DNA from: a virus
Lineage: Duplodnaviria; Caudoviricetes
Virus record (IMG/VR): IMGVR_UViG_3300007514_000009
Location: 1 to 59,180 of that record
Strand: one strand, 5' to 3'
Length of the DNA: 59,180 nucleotides
Positions 15,539-42,936 of the stretch are shown here, piece by piece. Each line of letters opens with the position of its first letter. The first letter of the stretch is position 1. The notes below the pieces were generated by a model. The model had not been told where the DNA came from, made no database searches, and saw only the letters and a program-made list of their open reading frames with translations. The position numbers and the translations under genes were made by a program.

Positions 15539-16918
15539 ATGGCTACGGCACAGATGCTCCAACCCTCCATTAGTTGGTCTGCTTTCGGTTCTGATTTCAT
15601 CTTGAAGCAGGATGCAGATGGCGATTTGTATGTAGCCGGATACGCAAGCGTGGATATGGTGGATAAGCAGGGAGACAGGATCCCTTCAGCCGCATTGAAA
15701 AAGGCATTCAATAGTTTCATGAATAACAAGGCGTATAGAAACGTGCAACTCGCGCACAGTGGAATACAAGTGGGTGAAGTTGTTGATTCCTATTCAGATT
15801 CACAAGGTCGTGTATGGAAATCCGAAGTGGATGACATGGGCCTATTCGTCGTATGCAAGATACGCAGCGACATTCAGAAAGCACGAGAAGTGCAAAAGCA
15901 GGTGCGCGACGGAGAACTCCGCGCCTTTTCAATTGGCGGACAGGCATTGTTCCGCGTCACAAAAACCACTCCCGAATTAGGAACCCACCGTGAGATCACC
16001 GACCTTGAGTTGCATGAAATCACCCTTTGTAAGAAGGGCATCAACCCAGAGGCGCGATACACAATCCTAAAGATGGACGAAACTGAAGAAGTGAGCAAAA
16101 TGACAGACAGCGAAGCATTGACTGAAATAAGAGATAATCTGGCCGATGTGCTAAAGGCACTCGACAAGAACGAGGAAAAGACTGAGGAGAAGTCCGAGGA
16201 GAAGTCCGAAGAAAAGACTGAGGAGAAGTCCGATACCGAGAAGTCGCACGATGATGGTGCGGTTGCTTACATCGACACTCTTGAGAAGTTCGCACACGAG
16301 CAGGGAGTTAATCTCGATGCTGTTCGCGCACACTTCGGATTGGAGAAGGCATACCTGCAAGAAGGCAGTGGTGGCTACTCGCACCGTGGAATGGGCGACG
16401 AGGTTGGAAGTGGCGAAAGCGCATCCGAGCCTACATACCCATCACTATCGGCTCCCGGTGGCAACAAGTATGTCATCAAGCAACCCGGTGTAGGCAATAT
16501 GGCTTACAACGGGCCAAAGGGCAACAAGAATGTCATCAAGGCCGATGAAATCACACCAGAAGGACTGGAGCGTGGCTACCGTGCATACGCTTCCATCCGC
16601 GATGAGGACGCATTGAAGGCTCTTGTCAAGCAAGACTGGGAGAATCGCTACGACGCTGAGACTGCTCAAGCACTTGAAGTCCAGAAGGCAAACGATTACT
16701 CCGGTCAGATTGCGGCACTAAAGGCTGAATTGGCCAGTGTCAAAACTGAGTCCGCTGAAATCCAGAAGTCTGCATCACCCGCAGTAAGTGACATACGCAT
16801 TCCAAGCCACGACGAGTTCGCCGCAATGGGGACTGGTCTTGATGGATGGAGAGCCACAGAGGAGTTGGCTCGCCGCGCTCTAAGGGGCGACGACCCGGAG
16901 GTCGCAAACCGAGGCTAA
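15539..16918 (+). CDS. Prohead maturation protease (HK97/herpes-like fold) fused to a C-terminal scaffold
   Basis: VAGYASV..VDKQGD, LAH (catalytic His), RAFSIGG (catalytic Ser), LHEITL...INPEA. The C-terminus is acidic and coiled-coil. The gene sits immediately upstream of the MCP. Confidence 0.92.
   Translation: MATAQMLQPSISWSAFGSDFILKQDADGDLYVAGYASVDMVDKQGDRIPSAALKKAFNSFMNNKAYRNVQLAHSGIQVGEVVDSYSDSQGRVWKSEVDDMGLFVVCKIRSDIQKAREVQKQVRDGELRAFSIGGQALFRVTKTTPELGTHREITDLELHEITLCKKGINPEARYTILKMDETEEVSKMTDSEALTEIRDNLADVLKALDKNEEKTEEKSEEKSEEKTEEKSDTEKSHDDGAVAYIDTLEKFAHEQGVNLDAVRAHFGLEKAYLQEGSGGYSHRGMGDEVGSGESASEPTYPSLSAPGGNKYVIKQPGVGNMAYNGPKGNKNVIKADEITPEGLERGYRAYASIRDEDALKALVKQDWENRYDAETAQALEVQKANDYSGQIAALKAELASVKTESAEIQKSASPAVSDIRIPSHDEFAAMGTGLDGWRATEELARRALRGDDPEVANRG
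16172..16246 (+). repeat. 12-bp tandem repeat encoding EEK(T/S)
   Basis: gaggaaaagact gaggagaagtcc gaggagaagtcc gaagaaaagact gaggagaagtcc. Confidence 0.85.
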
Positions 16919-16956: not shown

Positions 16957-18117
16957 ATGAGTGGATCAAGAGGATACATCAGGACAATAGAGGACATGGA
17001 GAGGCTATACTACGGTGCGGGCGCAGGTGCGAACGCATGGGCTTACTCTGGAACAGACTTGCTAAAGGCTGACTCGCCATTGGTAAGTAGCACAACAGGA
17101 ACCTACCAAGCGATCTTTGGACGCAAAGTATGGTCACAACTCAATCAGGAGTTCAATGCATTTAGCATACTCCCCAAGAAGCCGTGGGAGAAGTCTGGAT
17201 GGAGGGTCGTCACCGACAAGCCTGACAGGGCAAAGGGTGGCGGTGTTGCTGAGAATGCAACCCTACCAGAATCGACCAAGCCGACCTTCGCAGAGGTCAG
17301 CACCAAGCCTAAGACCGTGGCTCACACCTTCGACCTAAGCGAGACAGCAATGTTCCTCGCCGACAAGGACGACGGACTTGGAGATGCAAGAGCAGTAATG
17401 AAGATGGAGATGGCAAAGCACCACGCCGAGCATATCAACGTCATGCTCTTGCAGGATCTCGATACCCCCGCAGGGAACAACTACGAATCCCTCGACAGGT
17501 GTCTTTCATCGGCTTTCGTTGAGACAGCCTCCTTTGGAGATGTCAGCGCAATAACCGATCACAACCAATACAACATCACCCGCTCCACTGGTTCAGCACG
17601 TCAGTGGTATGATTCCAACGTGGATGCAGGTTCGACTGGGACAGAGAGAGCATTGAGCCTCAATGTCATGGACGGAATGTTCCGAAGCGTTTGGGAGCGT
17701 GGTGGTCAGCCAAAGGTCATCCTAACTGGCTACGACACACTGGAGAAGGTTCAGCAACTACTCCAGCCACAGCAGAGATTCACTGAGATGAAGCGCGTCG
17801 TTCCCGGCGTGAATGGAGTCAAGGGTGTTCCGGGTATGGAGGCGGGCTTCGTGGTCGCTACCTACAACGGCGTCCCACTAATTCCATCGAAGGATGTCCA
17901 TGCCGAATCCGGCGGACTATCCCGAATGTATTACATCGACTCTGATTACCTATACTTCTCGACAGCCAAGCCTACACTATACCACGAGTCGGGCATTGAA
18001 ACCGGAGATCCTTTCGGAATCAACAGACTCGGACAGATGGGTATGTTCCACACAATGGGCGAACTATGGCAACTGTTCTATGGAGCGCATGGCAAAGTGA
18101 GGGACTTGAGTGCCTGA
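16957..18117 (+). CDS. Major capsid protein (HK97 fold), magrovirus-like
   Basis: 386 aa, following the protease, with a strong AGGAGG SD. E-loop-like GGVAENATLPESTKPTF and C-terminal YNGVPLIPSKD...MYYIDSDY...TMGEL. The sequence pattern is recognised as an archaeal tailed-virus MCP. Confidence 0.93.
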   Translation: MSGSRGYIRTIEDMERLYYGAGAGANAWAYSGTDLLKADSPLVSSTTGTYQAIFGRKVWSQLNQEFNAFSILPKKPWEKSGWRVVTDKPDRAKGGGVAENATLPESTKPTFAEVSTKPKTVAHTFDLSETAMFLADKDDGLGDARAVMKMEMAKHHAEHINVMLLQDLDTPAGNNYESLDRCLSSAFVETASFGDVSAITDHNQYNITRSTGSARQWYDSNVDAGSTGTERALSLNVMDGMFRSVWERGGQPKVILTGYDTLEKVQQLLQPQQRFTEMKRVVPGVNGVKGVPGMEAGFVVATYNGVPLIPSKDVHAESGGLSRMYYIDSDYLYFSTAKPTLYHESGIETGDPFGINRLGQMGMFHTMGELWQLFYGAHGKVRDLSA

Positions 18118-20441: not shown

Positions 20442-22025
20442 ATGCCAAGAGTATTCAATCCGGGCCATAGACCCAATCAGCCACTCTATCCAGACGATCT
20501 GGCTTACACTACGGTTGCTAATATCGAAGCATACCTCCAACTGCCTGAACAGAAACCGACTTTGCTTGCGGCTGATACAAGTGTGGCCAGTAGCACAATA
20601 CGAATACCAGTCAATAATGAAGATTATCGGCGTTGGGGCTTTGCTTCTGGTGATGTTGTCACGATTTATGACGATGTTGATGCGTTGGGGAGTAGCGTCA
20701 CGCTTACTGGTGTGGCATCATCCGGTGCTTCGGGTATCATCAATCTTCTGGCAGCAAATCCCGGCACAGCATATACTAAAGCGAATAACGCTACCATTCA
20801 ACCTCAATCAATACTCACGAACAGCAAACAACGCGGCATAACCAAGTCACAGGTCGAAGATATCATTCGTCGGAGACAGGATTACATTGATCGCATAACA
20901 CGACAGGCATGGCGGCCCCGTATTGTTGTCGATGAATACAAAAACTTCACCACATTCAAGCCATATCGTCGCCGATACTACACAGATTATGTTGGAGCGG
21001 TTTATCTGAACCATCGTTCCGTGCAAAGGGTATTGCGAATGGGGGTTTGGCAAGGCGACAAGTATCGTGAATTGGCGGCATCGAGAGTCAAATTGCTGGT
21101 TCAGAACACTCATCAACTCACAGGAACTCCTAAGATATTCCTTTGTCCGAACATAGCCCACACTGCGATTCTATCCAGTGGGACTACTTCTTCAACGTGG
21201 CAGAAGGATTTTGGCCCGAAGTCCGTCGCAACGGAAATAGCGAATCTCATCAATCAGGACACAGAATCAGGAAAAGTGGCCGTGCAAGTGGGGTCAATGA
21301 CTGAAAATGGCAAAGCATTGAATGTCAGTCACGAGTTTTTGGCTACGGCTAACAGTGACGAGGGCGATGGCCAGATTCATATCAGCAGTATGCGCTCAAC
21401 CGATGAAGGCGAGCAGACCACCATTGCTTTCACTACATCGAACTGCTTTGTTGCATCGTTAGGCACGGATGTCAGTGCGAATGTCCAAACCACGGGTTCT
21501 TCCTTTGCTGTCGATGACGGTTCGGTTTTCGTGGAAGGAAATGGTTTGTATTATTTCGACGGCTCCAATGGTGCGCTTCATGTTGCTCGTTGCACGAGAA
21601 GTGGAGATACTATCACCATAGCCGATGATTTGACTTCATCATTCCAATCCAACCTTACTAATGTCACAGTATTGAAGCAGATCAAACTCCTGAGCGATTC
21701 AGTCGATGAGCAAAGGCAGAAGGATTGGTGGTCGATGGAGGATGAAGGAGCAATTCTGTTCAACAACCAGTATCCATTCTTTGAGAATCACAGCCTCAAG
21801 ATTTCCTACATCTATGGGGAGCGGTATCTCGATAAGGCCATAGAGGATGCTTGCACCAAATTAGTGGCGATAGATGTAATGATGACCGATGATTACTCTG
21901 CTTTATTCCCCGAAGGGACACAAAACGTCGATCTGAATGCCAAAATACAGAAGTTAGAAGAAGAAGTCAAGCGGATTCTCGTCCCGTATCAAGAGAGCAT
22001 TATCGTAGCAGGTATGGGTGGTTGA
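20442..22025 (+). CDS. Head-tail adaptor (neck) protein with large inserted domains
   Basis: N-terminal YTTVANIEAYL, IIRRRQDYIDRIT, and C-terminal ISYIYG...IEDACTKLVA...VKRIL are adaptor-like. It is 527 aa because of insertions. Confidence 0.75.
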   Translation: MPRVFNPGHRPNQPLYPDDLAYTTVANIEAYLQLPEQKPTLLAADTSVASSTIRIPVNNEDYRRWGFASGDVVTIYDDVDALGSSVTLTGVASSGASGIINLLAANPGTAYTKANNATIQPQSILTNSKQRGITKSQVEDIIRRRQDYIDRITRQAWRPRIVVDEYKNFTTFKPYRRRYYTDYVGAVYLNHRSVQRVLRMGVWQGDKYRELAASRVKLLVQNTHQLTGTPKIFLCPNIAHTAILSSGTTSSTWQKDFGPKSVATEIANLINQDTESGKVAVQVGSMTENGKALNVSHEFLATANSDEGDGQIHISSMRSTDEGEQTTIAFTTSNCFVASLGTDVSANVQTTGSSFAVDDGSVFVEGNGLYYFDGSNGALHVARCTRSGDTITIADDLTSSFQSNLTNVTVLKQIKLLSDSVDEQRQKDWWSMEDEGAILFNNQYPFFENHSLKISYIYGERYLDKAIEDACTKLVAIDVMMTDDYSALFPEGTQNVDLNAKIQKLEEEVKRILVPYQESIIVAGMGG

Positions 22026-22028
22026 ACT

Positions 22029-22292
22029 GTGGATGATTACAGTAAGATGGTAAAACGGAGAGGAAAGGCATTAGACGCCCTCTCCAAAGCAATAGATGAC
22101 CTTATCCTCAAAGAACCGGCTATGGCTAAAGTCATAGAACAGAGGGAGAGAGAGGGGCCGCTACCAGCGGGAATTGAGATGTCGGACGAGGACATCAATA
22201 GATTGGTTGAGATTCAGATGAAACAGAATCCTTACCGAATGGCTTTAGAACAAAGACGGAGAGAGTTGGACGAGGTGATTCAGAATGGCTGA
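22029..22292 (+). CDS. Hypothetical helical protein (87 aa)
   Basis: GTG start after ggtggt; its 3' end carries the GAGGTGA SD for the next gene. Confidence 0.65.
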   Translation: MDDYSKMVKRRGKALDALSKAIDDLILKEPAMAKVIEQREREGPLPAGIEMSDEDINRLVEIQMKQNPYRMALEQRRRELDEVIQNG

Positions 22293-25200
22293 TGCGATAT
22301 CTGCGGTGCGTGATCTGATTGAATCTAATTGGACTAAGCCGCCGAAACCGTCTATTGAGGATATCGCTGTTCTTGACAGAGGCGACGCCAAGCGCGTTAG
22401 GATGTTGGATAACGATGTTATTCGTATCTTTGAGACTGCTCACAATGAAGCGCAACCTGAGTTGCTCTATGATTATGTGAATAGACACGTCAATATCACT
22501 CTCGATGTGAGGACGGTCAAGAGCAGGGAACGATTATCGGAACTTAGAACCGAGGTTCGTAGGATTCTCCACGCATTCAGAAAGGGCGACGGGGTTAATT
22601 TTGACCGTTTGATATTCAAGACAAGGACTGATCTCTCAGATCGGTCAAAAAAACTGTTCAGATATACAATTCAAGCAGAAGTAGTGACTTTTGCTTTGGT
22701 TGCAGGGACTGACGATACAGTAGTAAATCCATTTACTGGTGTCGTTTCGGCAAGCACTACCTATCAAACATATGATACAGGTCTGACAGAGATAGCGAAC
22801 CTCACACCGACCAACGGCTATGTCATCATTGGCGATGGTTCATCATGGACTACTTCGGCAGTGGCTGGCGACATAACTGCCGTCACAGCCGGGACGGGGT
22901 TGAGTGGTGGTGGGGTGACAGGCGATGTCACATTGAATGTCAGTGGCCTCACCGTATCAGAATTAGCCGCAGGTAGCCTTCAGATAAGTTCTGAGGCGTT
23001 TGCAGACAACGACACTACCCTGATGACCTCGGCGGCAATACAGGACAAGATACTGTCCTATGGCTATACCACGGCAGTAGGTGATATTACGGCCGTCACG
23101 GCCGGGTCTGGGCTGACTGGAGGGGGGTCAAGTGGCGACCTCACAGTCACTCTCGATCTCAAAGACGAAGATAACATGGCCTCCAATTCTGCAACACACG
23201 CGGCATCTCAGCAATCAATCAAGGCGTATGTGGATGCAGAAGTCGCGGGATTAGTCGATTCTGCCCCGGCGGCATTGAATACCTTGAACGAATTAGCCGC
23301 TTCGCTAAATGACGATGCCAACTTTTCGACTACGATTTCCACCGCATTGGGCCTTAGAGTCCGGGTGGATACCAACGGTCAATCCCTGACGAACACCCAG
23401 AAGGCCAATGCTCGCACAAACATAGCCGTTGATGTCGCGGGAACTGATAACTCAACTAATGTCACATTAGCAGGAAGCAGAGACTATCTCACTATTAGCG
23501 GGCAGGAGATAACTCGTGGCGTAATCGACATCTCGGATGATACAAATCTTGCTGTATCGGCTCCAATCACACTTTCTGGAGACACTATCGGCCTTGCAGA
23601 TCCAGCAAATCTAAGTCAATTAACAGAGAGTTCGGATGCTACGGACGACAAGATACTCCTTTGGGACGAATCAGCATCCTCTTGGAAATACATGACAGTT
23701 GATGATTTACAGGATTCCATAGATACCTCGACCCTCGCGGCCAATGACGCTACAATTACCCTAACCGCAGGGACGGGGTTGAGTGGTGGTGGTGATTTTA
23801 CCACGAATCAAAGTGGTAATGAAACTCTCACATTCAATGTCGGCGGCCTCACAATCGCAGAATTGGCCGCAGGTGCTATTCTCCTCTCGTCAGAGTCCTT
23901 TGTCGATTCGGATACTCAGTTGATGACTGCTAAGGCGATAGCAGATAAGATTGAGTCATATGGCTACACTACTCAAGTAGGTGATATCACTGGAGTCACC
24001 GCCGGGGCTGGCCTCAGTGGGGGAGGCAATTCTGGTGCGCTTACGCTAAATCTGAGTCATTTGGGCATTGAATCCCTATCTGACCCCAATGATGACCGTA
24101 TCTTGTTCTGGGATGACTCGGCAGGGGCAACAGCATTCTTGGATATCGGTAGCAATTTAACCATAACTGGCACGACAATCGCGGCTACGGATACCAATAC
24201 AACCTATTCGGCTGGCACGGGCCTCACTTTATCCGGCACAACATTCAGCGTATCGGATCCCGCGAATCTGGATGAATTGACTGAATCGGATGATAATCCA
24301 TCCGACAAGATACTCCTATGGGATGAATCTGCATCCGTATGGAAACACATGACGATAGATAATCTCGGCGATGCATTAGATGTCAGCACTACTTTGAATG
24401 CACTGACTGATGTGACGATAAGTAATCCAGCGGCAGGTCATGTCCTCGTCTATGACAATACCAATTCTATTTTTGAAAACACACCCTTGACAGCAGGTAG
24501 CAACATTTCGATAACTAATGCAGATGGCTCGATAACCCTCGCATCAACAGATACAAACACTCAACTTTCAACAGAACAAGTCCAAGACATTGTTGGAGCA
24601 ATGTTCTCATCCAATACAGAAACGCGCATTTCTGCGACATATGAGGATGGCGATGGCACAATAGATCTCGTTGTCGATGACATGACTACGAACACCCAAC
24701 TCTCAACTGAACAGGTGCAGGATATTGTCGGAGCAATGTTCTCATCCAATACAGAAACGAGGGTTTCTGCGACATATGAGGACGGAGATGGAACCATTGA
24801 CCTCGTTGTCGATGACATGACTGCGAATACAAATCAACTGACTACTTTTGTGATACGAGATGATGATGATGACTCCAAGACTGTCGCCCATAACAAATAT
24901 CTCAAGTTCGCATCTGCCACTGGGGCCGCGGGGACGAATTGGTCGGGTTCCGGCACTACTGGCGACCCGTGGATTATGACAATAACAAATCCAGATACCA
25001 CTTATTCAGTGGGCGATGGCGGCCTCACTCAAAACAATTTCACGAATACTCTGAAAACGAAACTGGACGGCATAGAAGTGTCGGCGGATGTGACAGATAA
25101 AGCGAATGTCGGTTCTGCATTGGCATCTCTTGATGGGACTGATACCCTATACATCGGCGATGCAGGAAATGATGCGACAATTAGAGTCCGAGGTAATTTC

Positions 25201-28200
25201 TATGTGGATGGAACGACCACAAGCGTGAATCAAACAGAAGTGAATGTGCAAAACGCATTCGTGTTTGAGGGAGCAACCTCTGATAATTATGAGACTACTC
25301 TGACTATTACCGATCCAACCGCAGATAGAACGATTACATTGCCTAATGCAAGCGGCACGATTTCTCTATCAGATACTCAACTTTCAACAGAACAGGTGCA
25401 GGATATTGTAGGTGCTATGTTTGCTTCCAATACAGAAACGCGGATTTCAGCAACATACGAAGATGGTGACGGGACTATTGACCTCGTTGTCGATGACATG
25501 ACTGCGAACACCCAACTTTCAACAGAACAGGTGCAGGATATTGTAGGCGCAATGTTCTCTGGAAATACGGAAACCAACACCGCCGTCACCTATGATGATA
25601 GCGACGGGACTATTGATGTAGTCACAACCTTAGATGGCGGGCCTCTTTCCACTGAAGCCATCCAAGATATTGTAGGTGCAATGTTCTCAAGCAATACAGA
25701 AACGAGTATTACCGCAACTTATCAAGACAGCGACGGAACAATAGATCTTGTCGTTTTGCCGGGTTCCGATCAAGGTGTTGTCGTCAATACAGGCGGGGCA
25801 TTGAATACCACTTCCTATATGCATCTTGCCTTCGGTGGCAGTTCAAGCGGCGACCCACGCGGTATTGCTCTTGGGCATACTACGGGTGGAAATAATTTTC
25901 CCGGTTGGGTCACGACCTACAATGACAATAATTTACTGTTAGACACCAATAAGGGAACGAATACTGGAAAAATAGAGATTTTTGAGGGGTCGAATAACAA
26001 TATCGCCATAACACCTCACGGAACAGGTAAGATAATTCTTGATGGTTTATCATGGCCCAATGCCGATGGAACGGCAAACTATGTCCTCCAAACCAATGGA
26101 TCAGGTGCGCTTTCGTGGGCGGCGCAGACCAGCAACACATGGCGAACTGTCACGGTAGCGGGTAATGCGAGTCTAACCGATAGTGAGGCTTTGACTTTTA
26201 ATGCTGGCTCTAATGTATCCATTACCGAACAGAACGGGTCTGTGACTATTGCTTCCACAGATACCAATACCACATATAGCGCAGGAAATGGCCTGACTCT
26301 ATCTGGCACTACATTCACACTTGCAGATCCGGCTACTGGCACAACAATTGATGAATCGACTGCGGATCCTGCTGATAGATTGCCAATTTGGGATGAAAGT
26401 GCTTCTTCATGGAAATACATCACTATTGATGATTTGCAGGATGAGATAGACACTGCATCAGGAGGCACAGTCACGGAAGTCACCGTAGGAGGTGGCCTCG
26501 ATATCTCAAATGGCACATCAACACCGAGTATTACTCTCGATTTCGCGGAACTTTCTGCATCAGGCACTCTTGTAGGCACTGATGATTTAGTTGTAATTGA
26601 TGATGCTGCAACCCGTAAAACCCAGATAGACACTATCCCCCTCTCGATTTTCAGCAACGACGCGGGATGGACATCGAATACAGGCGACATTACTGGAGTC
26701 ACGGCCGGGGCGGGGTTGAGTGGTGGGGGGGCCAGCGGCTCAGTCACCCTCTCATTAGATGACCCTGCGAATCTTTCTCAACTGACTGAATCGACTGACG
26801 CCACCGATGACAAGATCCTGCTTTGGGATGAAGATGCGGGTTCATGGAAATACATGACATTAGATGACCTTCAAGATTCGATAGACACCACAGCATCGGG
26901 TGGCGCGGGAGAGGCATTCAAGACTATCTCAGTGAGCGGTCAGGACGATGTAGTAGCGGATGGGGCAACAGACACTCTAACGCTCGCAGGTGGCTCAAAT
27001 GTCACCATCACTACTACTGCTGGTTCAGATACCATCACCTTTGCATCGGCAGATACGAACACTCAACTCACGGATGAATATGTCCAAGATTTGGTTGGGG
27101 CCATGTTCAGTAGCAATACGGAAACTAATACGACAGTCACATATCAAGACGGCGACGGAACGATAGATGTAGTCACGACTCTTGATGGCGCACCCCTCAC
27201 GACAGAGGCGGTTCAAGACATAGTAGGGGCTATGTTCTCATCGAATACTGAAACACGAGTTGCCGTCACATATCAAGACGGAGATGGAACCATTGATGTT
27301 GTTGTCGATGACATGACGGCGAATGACAACACTTGGAGAACAGTCACAGCGGGCGGCAATACTCTCTCCACAAGTGAAACCCTCGCCTTCACCGCCGGGT
27401 CAAATGTGACTATTACTGAGAGTGGGGGTGCGGTCACGATTGCTTCGACAGATACCGACACTAACACATGGAGGACAGTCACAGCAGGGGGCAACACTCT
27501 CTCCACCAGCGAAACCCTCGCCTTTACTGCCGGGTCGAATGTGTCTATTACCGAGAGCGGAGGTGCAGTCACAATCGCTTCAACTGATACAAATACCACA
27601 TATTCAGTAGGAGATGGTGGGCTTACTGAATACAACTTTACAAGCACTCTTAGGAGCAAACTTCTCGGTGTCGAATCGGATGCTGATATCACAGATAAGG
27701 CCAATGTTAGCGCAGCCCTCGCTTCACTCACAGGCGATGACACACTTTACATTGGAGATTCGGGGGATGATACTACTGTAAGAGTTCGTGGTAATTTCTA
27801 TGTGGATGGAACAACAACCAGTGTGAATCAAACCGAAGTGAATGTGCAAAATGCCTTCGTCTTTGAGGGGGCTACTGCCGATGCTTATGAAACAACATTG
27901 ACTATCACAGATCCAACAGCAGATAGAACGATTACGCTACCTAATGCAAGTGGAACTGTATCGCTGTCTGATACTCAACTCTCAACCGAGCAAGTTCAGG
28001 ACATAGTAGGTGCAATGTTTAGCAGCAATACAGAAACGCGCATTTCCGCTACCTACGAAGATGGCGACGGGACGATTGATCTTGTTGTCGATGATATGAC
28101 CGCGAATGACAATACATGGCGAACAGTCACGGCAGGTGGTAATACTCTATCCACCAGTGAAACCCTTGCCTTTACTGCGGGTTCCAACGTGACCATTACT

Positions 28201-31200
28201 GAAAGCGGCGGGGCTGTCACGATTGCTTCGGCAGATACGAACACCCAATTATCCACCGAGGCTGTTCAGGATATCGTAGGTGCAATGTTCAGTAGCAATA
28301 CAGAAACACGAGTAGCAGTCACATACCAAGATGGCGACGGGACGATTGATCTCGTAGTTGATGACATGACTGCTAATGACAATACATGGCGAACTGTCAC
28401 GGCAGGAGGCAACACCCTATCAACAAGCGAAACACTGGCTTTCACAGCCGGATCCAATGTGACTATCACAGAAAGCGGAGGCGCGGTGACGATTGCCGCT
28501 ACGGGTGATGTGACGACAACAGCCACGCAGACTCTCACGAATAAGACATACGGCCCGTTATCGTCGGGTTATGTCGTCATGGGTGCTTCCAATGATACCC
28601 TCGCTATCACTTCCAATGGGGCGCACAATCTCCATCTATCCACGAATAGCAATTCCAATTCAGGCAGTATTCTCATTCAACAAGGCGCGAACCAACCCAT
28701 AAGCATCACACCCAATGGGTCAGGAGATGTAATCCTTGATGGGTTGAAGTGGCCTCAAGCAGATGGAACAGCGAACTATGTCCTGAAAACTGACGGGAAT
28801 GCTCAGTTATCATGGGTTGCTCAAACATCCGACACGAACACGACCTATTCAGGAGGGACGGGGCTTACACTCTCAAGCACCACCTTCAATGTCGATGCCG
28901 CACAGACGCAGATAACGAGCATTGGGACGATAGGCACGGGAGTATGGCAGGGAACGGCCATAGCGCAAGCATACATAGCAGATCAGGCCATCAATGAGGC
29001 CAAACTGCAAGTTTCTAATTCTCCAACCAACGGGTATGTCCTGACGGCTCAATCCGGCAACACGGGTGGTCTGACTTGGGCGGCGGCGAGTAGTGGTGGT
29101 GCTTCTGCATTAGATGGATTATCAGATGCTAAATCGGAAGGAACGGATTTCTCCGGTTCATTACTCATAGGCCATCAAACGCATGGGACTCTAAGTTCGG
29201 CGGATCACAATACAGGAGTAGGAATAGCCGCTATGGATGCAATAACTTCAGGTGATAGAAACACAGCATTGGGCCACCAAGCATTAAGCGGATTAACGGG
29301 TGGTGGTGATAATACCGCTATTGGAAAAGACGCTCTATTGGCTAACAACAATCACGGTAGCGTGGCTATTGGTGCTTATGCGGCTCATGCTCTATCTAAC
29401 GGCAAAGGATATACTGTGGTAATTGGAAGTCAATGGAACAACAATGCTTTCGACGCTGAAAAGGCGGTGGCAATAGGAAGAACTGCATTAAGCAACACAA
29501 CAGCAGATTATACTGTTGGTATAGGTTCTTCTGCGGGATATGGCATAACTTCGGGTTCAGGGAATATAGCCATTGGAAAAGATGCAGGGTATAATGTTGG
29601 AACAGGTGCAAGAAACATCGCTATTGGTTATCAAGCGATGGATGGTGCTTCTAACGATAGCGACAACATAGCAATTGGATATGATGCCCTCGGTGGTGCT
29701 GTTAATGGTGGTGAGAAGAACCTCGCCATTGGAAACTACACCCTCGATGCTTTGACCTCCGGCGACCAAAATGTAGCACTTGGGTATAATGCGGGTGGTG
29801 GGATTACCGAAGGTCACTCCAATGTAGCAATAGGACATGACGCTCTTACTGCGACCTTGATTTACGGAGAAAATGTAGCAATAGGACAGAATGCCTTGAA
29901 GCAATTAACAGGCAACAGTTATGCGAATACTGCTATTGGAAGAATGTCCTCCACCGTTATGACTTACGGTGAGGAAAATACGACAATAGGATATTATTCG
30001 GGTGCGGCTCTTGCTAATGGGGCGCATAGAAACATCTTGATTGGTAGTTATGCCGGAGATAACATCACTACGGGAGATAACAATGTAGTTATTGGAAAGG
30101 CTGATGTGACAGCAACAGGCTCAGACCAACTCTCGATCTCATCGGGTGATGGTAGCCCGGTTTGGATTACAGGTGGTTCAGACGGTTTTGTTAATTTCCC
30201 TGCATCTAAAATCAAACTCAACGATTCTTACGGATCTGATGGTCAGGTTCTCACTTCAACAGGTTCAGGCGTTGCGTGGGAAGCAGTAAGTGGCGGTATA
30301 GCAAGTTTAGCCGCAGATAGCACACCACAGTTAGGTGGCAATCTGGATGTTGATGGTAATGATATTGTCTCAACCTCAAATGGCCCGATAGACATCAACC
30401 CACATGGAACGGGTAAAGTCAGAATAAACACAACAAGCACAGATGGCCTGAAGTTTGATGTTAGAGGCAACAGCAATGAGACTGTTGCTAATTTCAGGAT
30501 TTCAACTACATCCACTACTTCAAACGCTTTTGCCGCTTTACAGTTAATTTCGGGAACAACAGGAACAAGCGGAACAGGTCAGGGTGCAAGACTACAATTT
30601 AGAACAGGTAATGATGGTTATGCGGGCTATACCGCAGGTGCAATTTATTCTTCGCGTGTTGATGACAGCAATCATCATTTGCATATTGCACCACAAGGAA
30701 CAGGTAATGTATCGTTAGGTAATTTCACTTTCAATGCTGACCAAAGCGTAGGTTCGGGTCAAGATAACTATGTTTTGACCTATGACCATTCGGCAGAGAC
30801 AATTGGATTAGAAGCAGCAGGTGGTGGTGGTGCTTCTGCATTAGATGATTTATCAGATGCTAAGACATTTGCTACCGATAACATCGGAATTGGCGAAAAC
30901 ACCATGTCTGCCGAAAATACAGGAGCGCAATACAATTATGCTTTCGGTAAAGGGGCATTACAAGACCTTACAACAGGAGATAGAAACAATGCCTTCGGTT
31001 TGTATGCTCTTGGTGATATTACTACTACTTCATACAATGTGGCTATGGGTGATTTTGCCGCAAGAAACGCTACCGGAACAGGAAATACTGCTATTGGGAG
31101 AGATGCCGGAAGAAACATAACTACGGGTTCATACAACACTTATCTTGGTTATCAGGCGGGTAGTCCTAATGGCGCACAATCAGGAACAGGCGACCACAAC

Positions 31201-34200
31201 ATAGGTATTGGGCGTTTAGCCGCAAGAGAAATGCGATCAGGAACCCGAAATATCGCTATTGGTGCTTATGCTTTAGATGCCGCAGACACGGAATCCGATA
31301 ACATCGCCATCGGCTACGATGCGTTGGGTGGTGCTGTTGCGGGTGGTGAGAAGAACCTCGCCATTGGAAACTACACTCTCGATGCTTTGACGAGTGGGGA
31401 GAAGAACATCGCCATAGGTCACAACTCAGGAACAGGGCTAACAACCGGCTCAAATAACATCGCCATAGGATATGCCGTCTTAGATGCGGCAACTACCGAG
31501 AGTCACAACATAGGCATAGGATATGCCGCGCTTGGTGGTGCTTCGCTTTCAGGCGGCATAAACAACATGGCTCTCGGAAGTTATACTCTTGATGGCCTAA
31601 CAAGTGGAGATAACAATTTAGCAGTAGGTTATGATGCCGGAGGCTCAATTTCAACAGGTAGTCATAACACCACATTAGGCTACCAATCGGGGCGTTTGAT
31701 TCAAGCCGGAGATAAGAACATAACACTCGGATGGACTGCCGGAAATAACATCACTTCGGGCGACAACAATGTCGTTATCGGCGCGGCAGATGTAGCGAGT
31801 GCAACAGGCGACGACCAACTTTCCATATCATCAGGAGATGGTAGCCCTGTATGGATAACAGGGACAAGCGCAGGTGCAGTCAATCTTCCTAACTCGATAC
31901 TCACAATCGCCGGGTCTGTTGGATCCGATGGTCAAGTCCTGACTTCGACAGGTAGTGCTGTCGCTTGGGAAGATGCGGGCGGCGGCGGTGCTTCTGCTCT
32001 TAGTGGCTTGAGTGATGTTCTGATTGATGCTACCAATTGGACTAATGGATTCCTCATTCAACCGGATAGTGACGGTTCAGCACCAACGACAGGGACATTG
32101 AATGGGGCTTCTAACAATGTAGGCATTGGTTCAGATGCCCTGATGCAAATTACTTCCGGCGATCATAACATTGTCTTTGGAATGGAAGCGGGTCGTGGAA
32201 TCACAAGTGGTCAGCGAAACATATCAATCGGAGGGAATAGCAATTGGACAGGCGGAACTCAATCATACAATGTGGCCGTTGGCTACAATTCAATGAGTGG
32301 GGCGCAAAATGGAGCCGATAACAATGTGGCCGTTGGGTATGCGGCATTAGCAGGTTCATTGACGGCAGATGAGATAGTCGCTGTTGGAAATTATGCGGGA
32401 ACGGCACATACATCCGGTTCAGAAGCGGTCTATATTGGTGGAGATGCAGGGAGAGCGAACACCACAGGCTCAAGGAACATAGCGATTGGGTATCAGGCTT
32501 ATGATGGCGCAGATACGGAATCCGACAACATAGCAATTGGTCATTCTGCCCTCGGTGGTGCTGTCGCGGGTGGCGAGAAGAACATCGCTATTGGGAACTA
32601 TGCCGGAGATGCTGTGACATCAGGTGATGAAAGCGTATTGCTCGGATATAGGGCGGGGTCTGCTCAAACAACAGGCACTAAAATGGTGGCTATTGGGGCT
32701 GATGCGCTTTATCAAGGAACGGCTCAAAACTTCATGACCGCCGTAGGACATAGTGCCGGATATAGTCAAACAGGAACAGAAGGTGTCTTGATTGGTTCAG
32801 ATGCGGGTTATAATGGTGGTGCTTCGCATGGTGCTGTTCATGTCGGCAGACAAGCGGGCTACAACGCTACCGGAAACGACAATGTATCGGTTGGTCGCTT
32901 CGCCATGTTTAGTGCTTCATCGAGCAATACGGGTGAGAAGAATGTCGCAATAGGGAGAGCCGCGCTATACGGTCTTTCAAGCGGCCACAGAAATATCGCA
33001 ATCGGTTATGCGGCTCTCGATAATGCAGACACCGAATCAGATAACATCGCAATCGGTCATGACGCTCTCGGTGGTGCTGTTGCTGGTGGTGAGAAGAATG
33101 TCGTCATAGGAAACTATGCCGGTGATGCGCTAACAAGTGCTGATGGATCAGTAATGGTTGGTCATCAATCGGGAACAGCCGTAAGTTCAGGAGGATTAAA
33201 CACCCTTGTTGGTTATCAAACCGGAAGCCAAGTATCAACAGGAATTGGAAACACCATGCTTGGCTATCAGGCAGGGGGTTATGGAAATCATCAGTATTCG
33301 ATAGGAATTGGCTATGGAGCGATGCAAAGTGCCGATAACACGGGCGATCACAATATCGCAATAGGCTCATGGGCCATGCAGAATGGCGCATTGACGGGCG
33401 ATTACAATGTCGGATTAGGCTACAAGGCGGGCTACAATCTCGGTGCGGCGGCGCATAAGAACATCACCATAGGGCATCAATCCGGCGACAATATCACCAC
33501 CGGAGATTTCAATGTGATTATCGGTGGTGGCGATGCCGCAAGTGCAACAGGCGATAGTCAATTACTAATCTCATCAGGAGATGGCGGGGTTAGTTGGATT
33601 ACAGGAACGAGTGCAGGTGTAGTCAATATCCCCGGTTCTTTGACCGTGGCCGGATCTGCTGTCGGTGGTGCTTCTGACCTTGATGGCCTGTCTGATGCTA
33701 AGAAATCGGGAACTAACTTCACCGACAGCCTTCTCATCGGCCATCAATCAACAGGCACTCTATCGAATGCGATATTCAATGTGGCGGTTGGAACAACTGC
33801 GATGACGAGCATTACTTCCGCCGCGAACAATACTGCTGTTGGGTCTTATGCGGGACAACTGACGAGTTCCGGCCAGAACAACACCTACATTGGCTACAAG
33901 GCGGGCAGATACCTCACCACAGACAACTACAACACGGTTCTTGGGTATAGTGCATTGGGGTCGAACAATACCCGAACAGGAGAAACTGCATACAATGTCG
34001 TCATCGGTGCTTTCGCGGCAGATGCGGTCACAACTGCAAACAACTTAGTCGCGGTTGGTTATGGCGCACTTGGGTCGAACACATCGGGTCATACCAATAC
34101 TGCCATAGGGCAGAACGCCCAAACTGCAAATCTTACCGGACTATACAACACCAGTCTCGGATATGATACGCTCAAAGGAAACACCACAGGCTCACGGAAC

Positions 34201-35417: not shown

Positions 35418-35744
35418 ATGGCCCTGCGTATATCCTATGACTGCCCGACGCAAATTACCTGTGAAGCCGCGCATTGCATTATCCGAGAGGCTCGCATCGA
35501 TAAGAAGAAAGCGGAATACGACCAAGAAGGGGAAGAAATCAGCCCTTCAACATGGCCAGTGACCTATTCGGGGTTAATCTTTGCATCTGAGGATGCGTAT
35601 CTTGGCGATGCCTCTCCAGTTGGCGGTTTCAATTTCAACTTCTCTATGAACAATAACGTGGGCGCGACGCAACACAATCTCATCAAGCAATCATACTTGG
35701 ATCTCAAGACACAAGCAGGTTTTGAGGACAGCGAGGACTGTTAG
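35418..35744 (+). CDS. Fibre-associated protein (108 aa)
   Basis: MAL...QSYLDLKT..GFEDSEDC pattern typical of genes following phage fibres; TTTAATTGAA box 31 nt upstream. Confidence 0.7.
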   Translation: MALRISYDCPTQITCEAAHCIIREARIDKKKAEYDQEGEEISPSTWPVTYSGLIFASEDAYLGDASPVGGFNFNFSMNNNVGATQHNLIKQSYLDLKTQAGFEDSEDC

Positions 35745-35762
35745 TCCTAACAGTTTATGAAC
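35737..35762 (+). promoter_or_regulatory. 18-bp palindrome (ACTGTTAG-TC-CTAACAGT) abutting a TATA-like box TTTATGAA
   Basis: Perfect 8-bp inverted arms at 35737-35744 and 35747-35754. The TATA-like box starts at 35754, 30 nt before ATG 35784. Confidence 0.5.
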
Positions 35763-35783
35763 CAGTTATACCTCGGCGACCTC

Positions 35784-36065
35784 ATGTCCGATGAGGAAAT
35801 AGTTGAGGAGAACGAGGAACAAGAGGCACAGAGTTATACCGCAGTGGAGATAATCAAGGCACTTCAGATTACAAATGCTGACCGTCTTGCGTTTCTAAGC
35901 GTATTTGAGCGATTTGCAGTAGGCGTCGATGGAGCATTGTCGAAATTGAGAGCAGATGTAGCCGAATTGAATGCGGGGATAAACGCCAGAAACGAAGGCG
36001 AAGAAGCCGTTATACCGACAGACGTTCCTGAATCGGACGACGAAGCGGACGACGATTCTGAGTAA
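35784..36065 (+). CDS. Acidic coiled-coil protein (~93 aa)
   Basis: ATG 35784 (MSDEEIVEE) is preferred over 35757, which lies within the promoter-like box. Confidence 0.7.
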   Translation: MSDEEIVEENEEQEAQSYTAVEIIKALQITNADRLAFLSVFERFAVGVDGALSKLRADVAELNAGINARNEGEEAVIPTDVPESDDEADDDSE

Positions 36066-36124
36066 TTTCAAGTGCCTCCCGAACTGCTTAAGGATGATTG
36101 ACCGTCCAAGCAGTCTTGAGAACT

Positions 36125-38353: not shown

Positions 38354-38779
38354 ATGAGACTGAGCGGATTCATTACCGTCAATGGGGTCAGAGTAAGATT
38401 AGATTGGACATTATCTGGTGACAAGATCATCGAAGGGCCGGGAGTAAGCGCAAGCGAAATTGAATTATCAATGCCTCTCGCCACCCCGCTCAGTAGTGTA
38501 GTCCCAGAGGCAGATTCAGTCCATATGACTTACAATGACGGTTATGAAGCACATACCGTCACCGAATTGAGAACCATGTTGTCCCAACGAGGAGAACCGA
38601 TATACGGCAACAAGGCAGATTTGATAGCACGACTGAGGGGATGGGATGCCGCAAACCCCGAAGGTCTGAACGAAGTTTTGGTCGAAGAACCAGAAGAACC
38701 AGCAGTTGATGAGTCTGCTGACGAAAGCGAAACAATAGAGGAGGAAAATGAGGTGATTGATGATGGCGGAAGTGAATGA
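38354..38779 (+). CDS. SAP-domain protein with an acidic tail
   Basis: TVTELRTMLSQRGEPIYGNKADLIARL is a canonical SAP motif; TTCAATAA box 31 nt upstream. Confidence 0.82.
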   Translation: MRLSGFITVNGVRVRLDWTLSGDKIIEGPGVSASEIELSMPLATPLSSVVPEADSVHMTYNDGYEAHTVTELRTMLSQRGEPIYGNKADLIARLRGWDAANPEGLNEVLVEEPEEPAVDESADESETIEEENEVIDDGGSE

Positions 38780-39119: not shown

Positions 39120-39475
39120 CCTACTCCGAACTTCTCCGTTATGTGGAGTCAGAAGGGGAGTATAATCCATTCACCCCCTCGCAAACAGCAGTGATTTCGT
39201 TCCAGACCATTGCATTCATACTTGGCACACACTTCAATTCTCCTCCTCATTTATGGGATAATCAGCCGAAAGACCGCGTTTATCTTGATTATCTGTTCGT
39301 CAGACTGGCTCAGGCGCAACAAGCAAAACAAATGGAAATATCTCAACAAGAGTCGGAGCGGTATAACGCTACGCAGAGTAAGAGCCATAGAGGAAAGTCA
39401 ATCAGAACAACAAGTGATAGTGCTGAACTTGAAGATTTCTTCGATAGGGTAAATCAGGATCTGAGGACTGAATAA
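39110..39475 (+). CDS. Frameshifted C-terminal part of the tail chaperone (gpGT-like)
   Basis: Open -1 frame from the slippery site, with no convincing SD of its own. TAATG overlap with the tape measure gene. Confidence 0.7.
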   Translation, partial: FGITYSELLRYVESEGEYNPFTPSQTAVISFQTIAFILGTHFNSPPHLWDNQPKDRVYLDYLFVRLAQAQQAKQMEISQQESERYNATQSKSHRGKSIRTTSDSAELEDFFDRVNQDLRTE

Positions 39476-42935: not shown

Positions 42936-42936
42936 T

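What the first reader, a model, noticed from the sequence alone, without database searches (positions are those of the whole stretch)
22285..22710. Giant fibre is fused to a tail-terminator-like neck domain rather than anchored at the baseplate
Seen: the gene occupies the slot between head-tail adaptor and tail tube where head-closure/terminator genes normally lie, and no separate terminator is evident. Its first ~140 aa (helix-PSI..-VIRIFE-NITLDVRT..RERL.EL..EVRRIL-FRYTIQAEV) match the alpha/beta pattern of gpU/gp17-like terminators, then switch abruptly to T/G/S/D-rich fibre sequence. Inference: very long fibres radiate from the neck. A hexameric terminator ring would have to be reconciled with trimeric beta-roll fibres (two trimers per ring). 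At 4298 aa versus a 740-aa tape measure, the fibre may exceed the tail in length, which could aid host capture in dilute seawater.
Basis: inference. Interest (0 to 1): 0.75.

Follow-up and report, generated by a model that had tools for sequence, protein, structure and literature searches.

The report
Tail terminator fused to giant fibre
In an uncultured marine virus, probably one that infects archaea, the small protein that caps the tail and joins it to the head is fused to a fibre of about 4,150 residues, so the fibre should be rooted at the neck rather than at the tail tip.

Summary
ORF 22285..35181(+) encodes 4298 aa.

- **Terminator fold.** Residues 1-139 fold with high confidence (pLDDT 89.9). 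The top 35 structural matches are all phage or tailocin tail terminators (Z 15.8 to 7.3).
- **Only copy.** It is the only terminator-like sequence in the window. The same holds in 5 of 5 related genome records.
- **Position.** Relatives with the domain as a separate 141-144 aa protein place it directly upstream of the tail-tube gene.
- **Fusion is real and inherited.** Of the best 80 viral loci, 37 carry the fusion, and it maps to one branch of the tree.
- **Fibre.** A conserved ~19-residue linker leads into a shaft predicted to form a homotrimer (score 0.82, best control 0.10). Proximal parts are conserved and distal parts vary.
- **Virus.** It looks like a magrovirus-type archaeal siphovirus.

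Not shown: the hexameric ring, two trimers per ring, fibre length and function. I rate it a new variant of known kinds (terminators and neck fibres). My searches found no report of such a fusion.

The parts
22285..35181 (+). Whole gene: tail terminator-fibre fusion, 4298 aa plus stop
   Evidence: ORF list and translation. Fused orthologues occur in 37 of the best 80 viral loci.
22285..22701 (+). aa 1-139: tail terminator (TrP) domain
   Evidence: AF2 pLDDT 89.9 with a 73-sequence alignment. VIA Z 15.8-7.3 to 35 terminator chains, Foldseek E 5e-8 to HFTV1. No internal repeats. It is 70-76% identical to stand-alone 141-144 aa proteins.
22702..22758 (+). aa 140-158: conserved linker between the terminator core and the trimeric shaft
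   Evidence: Alignment A3 of 23 fused sequences, with N148 and P149 invariant. Low pLDDT in the monomer model. Confident trimer contacts begin at aa 158-160. No conserved slippery site.
22759..23544 (+). aa 159-420: proximal shaft, conserved in all fused relatives, predicted homotrimer
   Evidence: tblastn hit in 37 of 37 fused loci. Three copies score ipSAE 0.82 against a best control of 0.10. Tail-fibre PHROGs 1197, 7032, 2631 and 454 match. aa 309-359 match Bxb1 'Tail collar fibers gp4' at E 1e-6.
23545..29109 (+). aa 421-2275: repeated shaft modules
   Evidence: Self-BLAST map: nine copies of a ~45-aa repeat, and a large duplication of aa 870-1050 with aa 1749-1920. Motif counts. Patchy conservation, 13-34 of 37 fused loci depending on the segment.
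29110..34794 (+). aa 2276-4170: four modules of short Gly/Ala/Asn-rich repeats, each closed by a conserved ~80-aa end segment
   Evidence: Self-BLAST. 37 N-x-A-[IVL]-G motifs and four module ends. PHROGs 4636 'tail spike', 6002 and 23837 'virion structural protein' at E 1e-24 to 1e-43. Found in only 1 of 37 fused loci, L025.
34795..35178 (+). aa 4171-4298: unique C-terminal domain, candidate receptor-binding tip
   Evidence: No internal repeat. No Pfam or PHROG family. 0 of 37 fused loci. The role as tip is inference from its position.
22029..22292 (+). 87-aa ORF overlapping the giant gene's start by 8 nt; unknown neck or connector candidate
   Evidence: Weak homologues at the same place in fused loci L012, L014 and L026. 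No family.
20442..22025 (+). 527-aa conserved ORF upstream; possible head-completion or connector protein (lead only)
   Evidence: 51-73% identical in both fused and stand-alone loci. phrog_17057, unknown function. Atlas feature scores of 0.85-0.87 to Phage_connect_1/HCP clusters, below the 0.9 bar.
35418..36065 (+). Two small ORFs (108 and 102 aa) between the fibre and the tube gene; candidate fibre accessory or assembly proteins
   Evidence: Absent from the stand-alone loci, where the terminator abuts the tube gene. Other fused loci carry different ORFs there: 649/652+189 aa in L012 and L026, 200+189 aa in L014. Function is inferred only.
36098..38314 (+). 738-aa tail tube protein candidate
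   Evidence: Atlas feature score 0.97-0.98 to 'phage tail tube protein' clusters carrying PF18906 in 35-87% of members. No Pfam, PHROG or PDB sequence hit. Follows the stand-alone terminator by 7-12 nt in 6 of 6 stand-alone loci examined.
39475..41697 (+). 740-aa tape measure protein
   Evidence: phrog_1535 and nine further tape-measure PHROGs.

Best explanation
The gene encodes this virus's only tail terminator protein. This is the small alpha/beta protein that caps the finished tail tube and docks it to the head. Here its C-terminus has been extended by a fibre of about 4,150 residues.

Shown:
- the terminator fold
- its positional orthology to stand-alone terminators that sit directly upstream of the tube gene
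- the absence of a second terminator
- inheritance of the fusion in a diversified clade
- fibre-family homology of the extension

Predicted with controls: the extension forms a homotrimer from about residue 158.

Inferred:
- As in all solved terminators, six copies form the ring at the head-tail junction.
- Their six C-terminal linkers of about 19 residues leave the ring sideways.
- Three neighbouring chains zip into each fibre, giving two very long trimeric neck fibres per virion.
- The conserved proximal shaft is the invariant 'handle'. The swappable distal repeat modules and the unique C-terminal domain bind the host surface.
- The fibres would therefore act as a first, long-range, reversible adsorption device.
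- The two small downstream ORFs may assist fibre assembly.

The virus is most likely a magrovirus-type archaeal siphovirus.
For: **Fold.** AF2 pLDDT is 89.9 and pTM 0.83. The top 35 VIA rows are all terminators or collar proteins. They run from HFTV1 (Z 15.8, rmsd 2.6, 139 aligned) to P1 (Z 7.3), and unrelated folds start at Z 7.1. Foldseek gives 36 matches with E<=0.001, led by HFTV1 at 5e-8 and including lambda gpU at 5e-5. Weak sequence echoes point the same way: PF11367 in 2 of 73 relatives, and HFTV1 chain 9fkb_Pa matched over its full length at E 0.57.

**Synteny.** In 6 of 6 stand-alone loci examined, the order is 527-aa ORF, terminator, tube, chaperones, tape measure.

**Single copy.** 1 of 663 six-frame segments of the window matches the terminator profile, at E 3.7e-43, and the next best is E 0.32. 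Each of 5 fused-clade records, one of them 100% complete, has exactly one match. In every case it lies at the N-terminus of a 1542-4052 aa open frame.

**Fusion is real.** 37 of 80 loci are fused. Complete ORFs measure 2571, 3211, 2855, 2855 and 3209 aa. The tree needs one change, on a branch with SH-aLRT 99. The junction is conserved.

**Fibre.** PHROG tail-fibre and tail-spike families match, as does a PDB collar-fibre motif. The trimer scores 0.82 against a best control of 0.10. Partner pLDDT is at least 89 and the runs agree in at least 92% of contacts. In calibration the mark was reached by 20 of 30 solved pairs and 1 of 23 single chains. My own alignment and three copies differ from that calibration.

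**C-terminal add-ons are feasible.** phiTE, pyocin and Milano terminators send C-terminal arms outward to the sheath. Larger terminators with extra domains are noted.

**Virus identity.** The capsid protein matches only haloarchaeal siphoviruses and one Methanofastidiosa virus. A Cpn60/TCP1 chaperonin is found in 9 of 9 related records.
Against: No virion, protein or expression data exist. No RNA-holding run was listed.

The ring stoichiometry was not tested here. Only a three-copy model of the fibre was run, so dimers, hexamers or monomers were not compared. A pass may also reflect memory of solved trimeric fibre motifs.

The monomer model of aa 1-420 was poor (pLDDT 50.9). The path of the linker out of the ring is therefore unmodelled.

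The T5 study suggests that a C-terminal tag on p142 may fold into the lumen. Outward exit is thus not guaranteed.

The window N-domain itself matches no Pfam family.

A hexamer feeding two trimers has C2 symmetry, not C6 or C3, which is unusual.

For the magrovirus label, PF00136 (PolB) was found in only 1 of 5 related records.
Confidence: 0.72

Rival explanations
1. The polyprotein is cut, or translation is partly stopped, at the junction. Most ring positions would then hold a plain ~140-aa terminator. The fibre would be either a separate molecule or present on only a few subunits, which removes the symmetry problem.
For: The linker carries invariant residues, N148 and P149, with no obvious structural reason. 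Stand-alone terminators end at the equivalent position. Mixed short and long products are known for other phage structural genes (general knowledge, recalled).
Against: No conserved slippery heptamer or conserved out-of-frame stop pattern was found at the junction in 15 sequences. No protease motif was identified. If the fibre were released, it would need another anchor, and none is evident.
Confidence: 0.15
2. The fusion protein is in the ring, but the extensions do not pair as two trimers. They could be six separate flexible strands, three dimers, or a disordered 'hair'.
For: Only the three-copy state was modelled. Bas63 whiskers and Goslar collar filaments are built from dimers. Two trimers on a six-fold ring break the symmetry.
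Against: Three copies gave pLDDT of about 90, against about 45 for the same residues as a monomer. The region matches families and a motif of known fibres.
Confidence: 0.12
3. The N-domain is a terminator-fold module reused as an anchor elsewhere, for example at the distal tail or on the tube. The true terminator would be an unrecognised protein.
For: The tube/terminator fold superfamily also occurs in baseplate proteins: 80alpha (Z 6.5), monocin tip (Z 6.4) and Mu baseplate (Z 5.5). Several small ORFs nearby have no assigned function.
Against: Terminators score Z 8.6-15.8, far above the baseplate chains. The domain is 70-76% identical to stand-alone proteins at the canonical terminator position. 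hhalign and hmmsearch find no other candidate.
Confidence: 0.05
4. The long ORF is an artefact, for example a lost stop codon, a chimeric assembly or collapsed repeats.
For: The source is a metagenomic assembly and the gene is repeat-rich. Logan contigs break inside the gene.
Against: 37 independent fused loci have a conserved junction. The junction is reproduced with 0 differences in X1 and X2 contigs. DNA repeats are only 65-84% identical. The exact repeat number could still be slightly off.
Confidence: 0.01

Closest known systems
Tail terminator proteins: lambda gpU, SPP1 gp17, T5 p142, HFTV1 gp29 (PDB 9fkb chain Pa)
   Same: Same fold over the whole domain (Z 11.5-15.8). Same size as the stand-alone relatives (141-144 aa). 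Same gene position before the tube gene. The solved examples form hexamers that cap the tube and bind the head connector (passages read).
   Different: Here the protein continues for about 4,150 more residues as a fibre. There is no significant sequence similarity to the Pfam terminator families.
Terminators with C-terminal additions: phiTE, pyocin R2, Milano, PVC16, T4 gp15, phiCD508
   Same: These show that the terminator core tolerates C-terminal arms or domains that reach the outside of the ring (passages). In the fold alignments the core covers only part of the longer chains, for example 1-131 of 272.
   Different: The known additions are tens to about 140 residues long and bind the sheath. 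This virus appears to have no sheath, and its addition is a fibre about 30 times longer.
Neck appendages: T4 fibritin whiskers, XM1 gp40, phi29 gp12, Bas63 collar/whiskers, Goslar gp126 collar filaments, PhiKZ whisker ring, Bxb1 'tail collar fibers gp4'
   Same: Fibrous structures at the head-tail junction, some touching the terminator (Goslar and Bas63). A fibre motif is shared with Bxb1 gp4 (E 1e-6). Proposed roles are sensing or first contact.
   Different: In the passages I read, these appendages are separate gene products docked non-covalently or by disulfides. None is fused to the terminator, and all are far shorter. I could not read how Bxb1 gp4 is anchored.
Long tail fibres and side fibres (T4, T5, Ur-lambda) with a conserved proximal part and exchangeable distal part
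   Same: Modular design: the proximal part occurs in 37 of 37 relatives and the distal modules in 0-1 of 37. Tail-fibre and tail-spike PHROG matches. Accessory ORFs lie downstream.
   Different: Those fibres are anchored to the baseplate or tail tip through a dedicated N-terminal domain. This one is anchored through the terminator.

Membership tests
Tail terminator protein (gpU / gp17 / p142 type) | Alpha/beta fold: a four-stranded antiparallel sheet flanked by two helices, about 130-160 aa | tested here: met
   AF2 model at pLDDT 89.9. The top 35 VIA rows are terminators at Z 15.8-7.3. Foldseek E 5e-8 to 1e-3.
Tail terminator protein (gpU / gp17 / p142 type) | Gene lies immediately upstream of the major tail (tube) gene | tested here: met
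   Stand-alone orthologues lie 7-12 nt upstream of the tube gene in 6 of 6 loci examined. In the window the fibre part and two small ORFs intervene.
Tail terminator protein (gpU / gp17 / p142 type) | Matches a curated sequence family (PF11367 Tail_completion_gp17 or similar) | tested here: inconclusive
   The window domain matches 0 Pfam families. 2 of 73 relatives match PF11367 at best E 0.0021. The profile against PDB gives HFTV1 at only E 0.57.
Tail terminator protein (gpU / gp17 / p142 type) | Forms a hexameric ring on the last tube ring and binds the head connector | not testable with these tools
Tail terminator protein (gpU / gp17 / p142 type) | One such gene per genome | tested here: met
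   One match among 663 six-frame segments of the window. One match in each of 5 fused-clade records.
Trimeric phage tail fibre | Sequence relationship to known fibre or spike families | tested here: met
   PHROGs 1197, 7032, 2631, 454, 892 and 4636. PDB fibre motif hits 9d93_La (E 1e-6) and 6v8i_BN (E 0.021).
Trimeric phage tail fibre | Homotrimer | tested here: met
   Prediction only. Three copies of aa 141-420 score 0.82 against a best control of 0.10. Other stoichiometries were not tried.
Trimeric phage tail fibre | N-terminal domain that docks to the baseplate or tail tip | tested here: not met
   The N-terminus is a terminator domain. Baseplate chains reach only Z 5.5-6.5.
Collar / whisker neck appendages (T4 wac, XM1 gp40, Bas63, Goslar gp126) | Separate gene product that docks on neck proteins | tested here: not met
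   A single continuous ORF, conserved as such in 37 loci.
   No such Pfam family at E<=1 on two repeat segments, nor at E<=0.01 on the whole protein. There are 37 short N-x-A-[IVL]-G motifs. No fold was predicted for this part.
Magroviruses (viruses of marine group II archaea) | Genome of about 65-100 kb, halovirus-like structural genes, chaperonin and archaeal-type replication genes (Philosof 2017, passages read) | tested here: inconclusive
   The capsid protein matches only haloarchaeal viruses and one Methanofastidiosa virus. Related records are 75-108 kb and 9 of 9 carry a chaperonin. PolB PF00136 was found in only 1 of 5. No direct comparison with published magrovirus genomes was possible.

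The most novel reading that the evidence does not exclude
A whole clade of abundant ocean archaeal viruses carries its main host-capture organ on the neck. It consists of two trimeric fibres grown directly out of the six-membered terminator ring. Each fibre is longer than the tail, and the distal modules are exchanged between lineages. Sister lineages with a bare terminator would do without it. This would be a new way of anchoring a receptor-binding fibre, by covalent fusion with a 6-to-2x3 symmetry break. It would also give a natural pair of genotypes for asking what neck fibres are for.
Probability: 0.4. Interest if true: 0.78.

Novelty: new variant of a known kind. Interest (0 to 1): 0.64.

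Why it matters
**A new way to anchor a neck fibre.** Neck fibres and whiskers are seen in more and more phage structures, yet their roles are mostly described as unknown. In the accounts I read they are separate proteins. Here the anchor is written into the gene. That fixes the copy number at six chains per virion and the attachment point at the terminator ring, without needing a structure.

**A concrete structural question.** How does a six-fold ring feed three-fold fibres?

**A natural comparison.** Bare-terminator lineages and fibre-bearing lineages occur within one virus group.

**A handle on host recognition.** If the magrovirus assignment holds, this is the first handle on how viruses of uncultured marine group II archaea recognise their hosts. 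The fibre tip could be expressed and used as a probe for host cells.

Tried and rejected
**Family and sequence searches with nothing useful**
- Pfam on the N-domain and its neighbours gave nothing useful.
- Whole-protein Pfam hits (THUMP, BTB_3) fall on the ~45-aa repeat with 0 passing stretches, so I treat them as spurious.
- tblastn of the N-domain against 50,697 cultured phage records found no match.
- PHROG hits for the N-domain were only to unknown-function phrog_19972.
- PDB sequence search with the 738-aa protein found no match.
- PHROGs on the 2167-aa, 2241-aa and 1123-aa ORFs found no match.
- Pfam and PHROGs on other extended terminator proteins (P0181, P0207, P0208, P0200) found no match.

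**Structure**
- The monomer AF2 model of aa 1-420 was too poor to use (pLDDT 50.9).

**Fibre homologues elsewhere**
- None in the rest of the window or in the 43 stand-alone loci at E<=1e-5.
- None in 4 stand-alone genome records. L072 was not held, and the tool warns that an empty answer without a positive control shows little.

**Other checks**
- A programmed frameshift at the junction has no support: no conserved slippery site.
- Sequencing runs: no RNA holder was listed. X3 and X4 contigs leave the junction uncovered.
- The apparent 'goes back 655' joint is the internal protein repeat just beyond the end of the stretch I laid, not a rearrangement.
- Earlier notes of this scan: none for this genome.

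**Literature**
- Searches for a terminator-fibre fusion found no such report.
- Three magrovirus papers were searched by term. The word 'fiber' had 0 occurrences in PMC5434244. 'tail fiber', 'tail fibre' and 'terminator' had 0 occurrences in PMC11706807 and PMC10160649.
- Their supplementary gene tables were closed and may annotate this gene.
Full report
**1. The observation**

The window holds one long ATG-initiated ORF, 22285..35181 on the + strand, encoding 4298 aa. Its start overlaps the preceding 87-aa ORF by 8 nt.

The first ~140 residues differ sharply from the rest:
- T+G+S+D is 23% in aa 1-140 and 44% in aa 141-4298.
- K+R+E is 24% in aa 1-140 and 6% in aa 141-4298.

This N-terminal part has no internal repeats, whereas almost everything after residue 180 is repeated somewhere in the protein.

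The surrounding genes are a head-tail module. In order they are:
- terminase and portal, further upstream
- protease (15539..16918)
- major capsid protein (16957..18117)
- six small ORFs
- a 527-aa ORF and an 87-aa ORF
- the giant ORF
- 108-aa and 102-aa ORFs
- a 738-aa protein
- three small ORFs
- the 740-aa tape measure (39475..41697)

The protein atlas places the 738-aa protein among 'phage tail tube protein' clusters. The feature score is 0.97-0.98, and PF18906 is present in 35-87% of cluster members.

**2. What the N-terminal domain is**

A full scan of 1.84 billion representative proteins with aa 1-147 found 112 relatives at E<=0.001. I aligned 73 sequences, including distant stand-alone proteins of 22-35% identity. 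AlphaFold2 on this alignment gave a confident model: pLDDT 89.9, pTM 0.83, with two long helices packed on a four-stranded sheet.

An exhaustive structural comparison with 48,161 PDB chains put 35 tail terminators or tailocin 'collar' terminators in the first 35 rows:

| Chain | Z |
|---|---|
| HFTV1 gp17-like protein (rmsd 2.6 A, 139 residues aligned) | 15.8 |
| Salmonella prophage protein 2gjv | 13.4 |
| Gene transfer agent | 13.1 |
| T5 p142 | 13.0 |
| Phage Chi | 12.8 |
| P74-26 | 12.5 |
| Mu | 12.1 |
| lambda gpU | 11.5 |
| T4 gp15 | 10.1 |

Unrelated folds begin at Z 7.1. Foldseek agrees, with 36 matches at E<=0.001 and HFTV1 at 5e-8. Baseplate members of the wider tube-fold superfamily reach only Z 5.5-6.5.

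Sequence-only methods barely see the relationship:
- The window domain matches no Pfam family.
- 2 of 73 relatives touch PF11367 at E 0.002 or weaker.
- The profile reaches the HFTV1 chain only at E 0.57.

**3. It is the virus's terminator, not an extra copy**

Stand-alone versions of the domain are common. 596 proteins of 80-258 aa match at E<=0.01. Most are 141-145 aa and about 70-75% identical. A few, such as P0003-P0005, are fragments of fused forms.

A scan of IMG/VR found 588 confirmed loci, of which the best 80 were kept. The ranking used a 250-aa query, so fused forms are favoured. Reading the frame from the match start in each gave these results:
- 37 loci have a long ORF. Five are complete, at 2571, 3211, 2855, 2855 and 3209 aa. 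The others run off the DNA held, at up to more than 3617 aa.
- 43 loci have a 141-144 aa ORF with its own stop.

In the six stand-alone loci I mapped, the order is 527-aa ORF, terminator, then the tube gene after 7-12 nt, then chaperone-like ORFs, tape measure and the 412-aa ORF. This is the canonical terminator position. The three fused loci I mapped keep the same order, with the fibre part and two variable ORFs inserted.

A profile HMM of the domain finds one match among 663 six-frame segments of the window, at E 3.7e-43 with the next best at E 0.32. hhalign against each neighbouring ORF finds nothing. In five fused-clade genome records, 71-100% complete by the collection's estimate, there is exactly one match each. 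It always lies at the start of a 1542-4052 aa open frame.

**4. The fusion is real, old and maintained**

The junction is conserved in 23 aligned fused sequences. Invariant residues continue past the terminator core: N148, P149, Q161, L167 and W188.

A maximum-likelihood tree of the domain was built from 84 rows (55 distinct sequences) with the quick method. It needs a single change between fused (38 rows) and stand-alone (43 rows). The stand-alone rows form one side of a branch with SH-aLRT 99. The three outgroup proteins are stand-alone, so gain of the fibre is the simpler reading. However, the outgroup branches are very long and the root is not secure.

Logan contigs of two runs reproduce window 21800-24300 with no differences across the junction. 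Both runs may be the source sample. DNA repeats in the gene are only 65-84% identical. This argues against collapsed or expanded repeats, although the exact repeat number is not proven.

**5. The fibre**

From the self-comparison, the motif counts and the linker evidence, the protein reads:

| Residues | Feature |
|---|---|
| 1-139 | terminator |
| 140-158 | linker |
| 159-720 | proximal shaft with duplicated blocks |
| 721-2275 | nine copies of a ~45-aa repeat, plus a large duplication (aa 870-1050 with aa 1749-1920) |
| 2276-4170 | four modules of short Gly/Ala/Asn-rich repeats, each closed by a conserved ~80-aa end segment |
| 4171-4298 | unique C-terminal domain |

Family matches support a fibre:
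- The proximal shaft matches tail-fibre PHROGs.
- The repeat modules match 'tail spike' and 'virion structural protein' PHROGs, at E down to 1e-43.
- aa 309-359 carry a motif shared with the chain deposited as 'Tail collar fibers, gp4' of mycobacteriophage Bxb1 (E 1e-6), and with the 80alpha upper fibre (E 0.021).

As a monomer the first 420 residues model poorly (pLDDT 50.9). As three copies of aa 141-420 the result is very different:
- The model scores 0.82 against a best control of 0.10.
- Partner pLDDT is at least 89.
- The three runs share at least 92% of contacts.
- Confident contacts start at residues 158-160.

In the tool's calibration that mark was reached by 20 of 30 solved pairs and 1 of 23 single chains. 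My alignment and copy number differ from the calibration, and likeness to solved trimeric fibres may help the score. This supports a trimer and does not prove one.

The fibre is modular across relatives. The proximal 280 residues are found in 37 of 37 fused loci. The repeat modules occur in 1 of 37 and the C-terminal domain in 0 of 37. Many of those loci are cut short, but none of the five complete ORFs has these distal parts.

Nothing like the fibre occurs elsewhere in the window or in the stand-alone loci. Four stand-alone genome records also gave no match, with the caveat that an empty answer there is weak.

**6. How it most likely works**

*Established by others.* Terminators form hexamers that cap the tube and present the surface for the head connector. 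This is stated for T5, lambda, SPP1, R4C and DT57C and for HFTV1. Terminator C-termini can reach the outside of the ring, as in phiTE, pyocin and Milano.

*Inferred here.* Six fusion chains sit in the ring, and their ~19-residue linkers run outward. Three neighbouring chains form each trimer, so a virion carries two fibres at the neck.

A rough geometric check rests on figures recalled from memory. With a ring about 9 nm across, neighbouring C-termini are about 4.5 nm apart. Nineteen extended residues span about 6 nm, so the arrangement is feasible.

Length estimates also rest on recalled figures. Known trimeric fibres run about 0.035-0.06 nm per residue, which would give roughly 145-250 nm for 4,150 residues. 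A 740-aa tape measure at about 0.15 nm per residue gives a tail of about 110 nm.

The variable distal half and unique tip suggest host binding, and long reach suggests first contact. The two small downstream ORFs, which are replaced by other ORFs in other fused lineages, are candidates for assembly helpers.

**7. What kind of virus**

The capsid protein matches only nine records among 50,697 cultured or deposited phage records. Eight are haloarchaeal siphoviruses of about 102-105 kb (HCTV-1, HVTV-1, HCTV-5 and relatives, 34% identity, E down to 1e-45). The ninth is a Methanofastidiosa virus. The best structural match of the terminator is also a haloarchaeal virus.

Related records are 75-108 kb, and 9 of 9 encode a Cpn60/TCP1 chaperonin. 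Against this, the PolB family was detected in only 1 of 5.

Passages of Philosof et al. 2017 (PMC5434244) describe magroviruses as 65-100 kb head-tailed viruses with homology to haloviruses and with chaperonins among their conserved genes. I therefore think a magrovirus-type archaeal virus is likely. I could not compare directly with published genomes.

**8. Comparison with what is known, and novelty**

*Same as known.* The terminator fold and position, the modular trimeric fibre, and the existence of neck appendages.

*Different.* In every neck appendage I read about, the fibre or collar is a separate protein docked on neck proteins. This covers T4 wac, XM1 gp40, phi29 gp12, the Bas63 collar and whiskers, Goslar gp126, the PhiKZ whisker ring and the Milano collar. 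Known terminator extensions are short and serve the sheath.

Six full-text searches found no report of a terminator-fibre fusion. The magrovirus papers I searched by term do not mention terminators or tail fibres.

I rate the finding a new variant of known kinds. It is not categorically new, because both parts and the general idea of neck fibres are known.

**9. Verdict**

The virion-level picture (ring of six, two trimers, reach, function) remains inference.

- Confidence in the overall explanation: 0.72.
- Confidence that the N-domain is the terminator and the fusion is genuine: above 0.9.
- Interest: 0.64.

Noticed in passing
window 38354-38779 (+): The 141-aa ORF just after the tube gene, at the place where tail assembly chaperones usually lie, carries a SAP domain (PF02037, E 7.3e-8, above the cut-off). 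SAP is a DNA-binding motif and is odd in a tail module.
   Followed up: no
window 22285-35181 (+): The 4298-aa protein has no cysteine at all. Some repeat copies are 95-98% identical as protein, whereas the longest DNA repeat families in the gene are only 65-84% identical over 205-300 nt. The two measures were not compared on the same copies.
   Followed up: partly
window 42907-49410 and 49404-56129 (+): Two more very large ORFs (2167 and 2241 aa) follow the 412-aa ORF after the tape measure, where distal tail or baseplate proteins are expected. Neither matches any PHROG and neither resembles the neck fibre.
   Followed up: partly
window 39475-41697 (+) versus loci L039, L042, L050, L060, L072, L078: The tape measure is 740 aa here but 475-576 aa in six stand-alone-terminator relatives. 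The fibre-bearing virus may therefore also have a longer tail. Other fused loci did not reach this gene.
   Followed up: no
proteins P0181, P0207, P0208, P0200, P0176: Distant relatives of the terminator domain (about 29-34% identity) also carry additions. P0181, P0207 and P0208 have ~330-aa C-terminal extensions, P0200 has a ~220-aa N-terminal extension, and P0176 has an internal insertion. None matches Pfam or PHROGs. Decorated terminators may be more widespread than the solved structures suggest.
   Followed up: partly
window 12111-15482 (+): A 1123-aa ORF lies between the portal region and the protease and has no Pfam or PHROG match. ORFs of similar size (813-1114 aa) sit at the same place in relatives.
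   Followed up: no
locus L039 10444-12891 versus window 36098-38314: In L039 the tube-protein homologue (815 aa) aligns with the window's protein only over its C-terminal ~400 residues, whereas other relatives align end to end. The N-terminal half of the tube protein seems exchangeable.
   Followed up: no
genome records G001-G009 (relatives): All nine related virus records encode a full-length Cpn60/TCP1-type chaperonin (E 1e-134 to 1e-157). The PolB family was detected in only one of five.
   Followed up: partly
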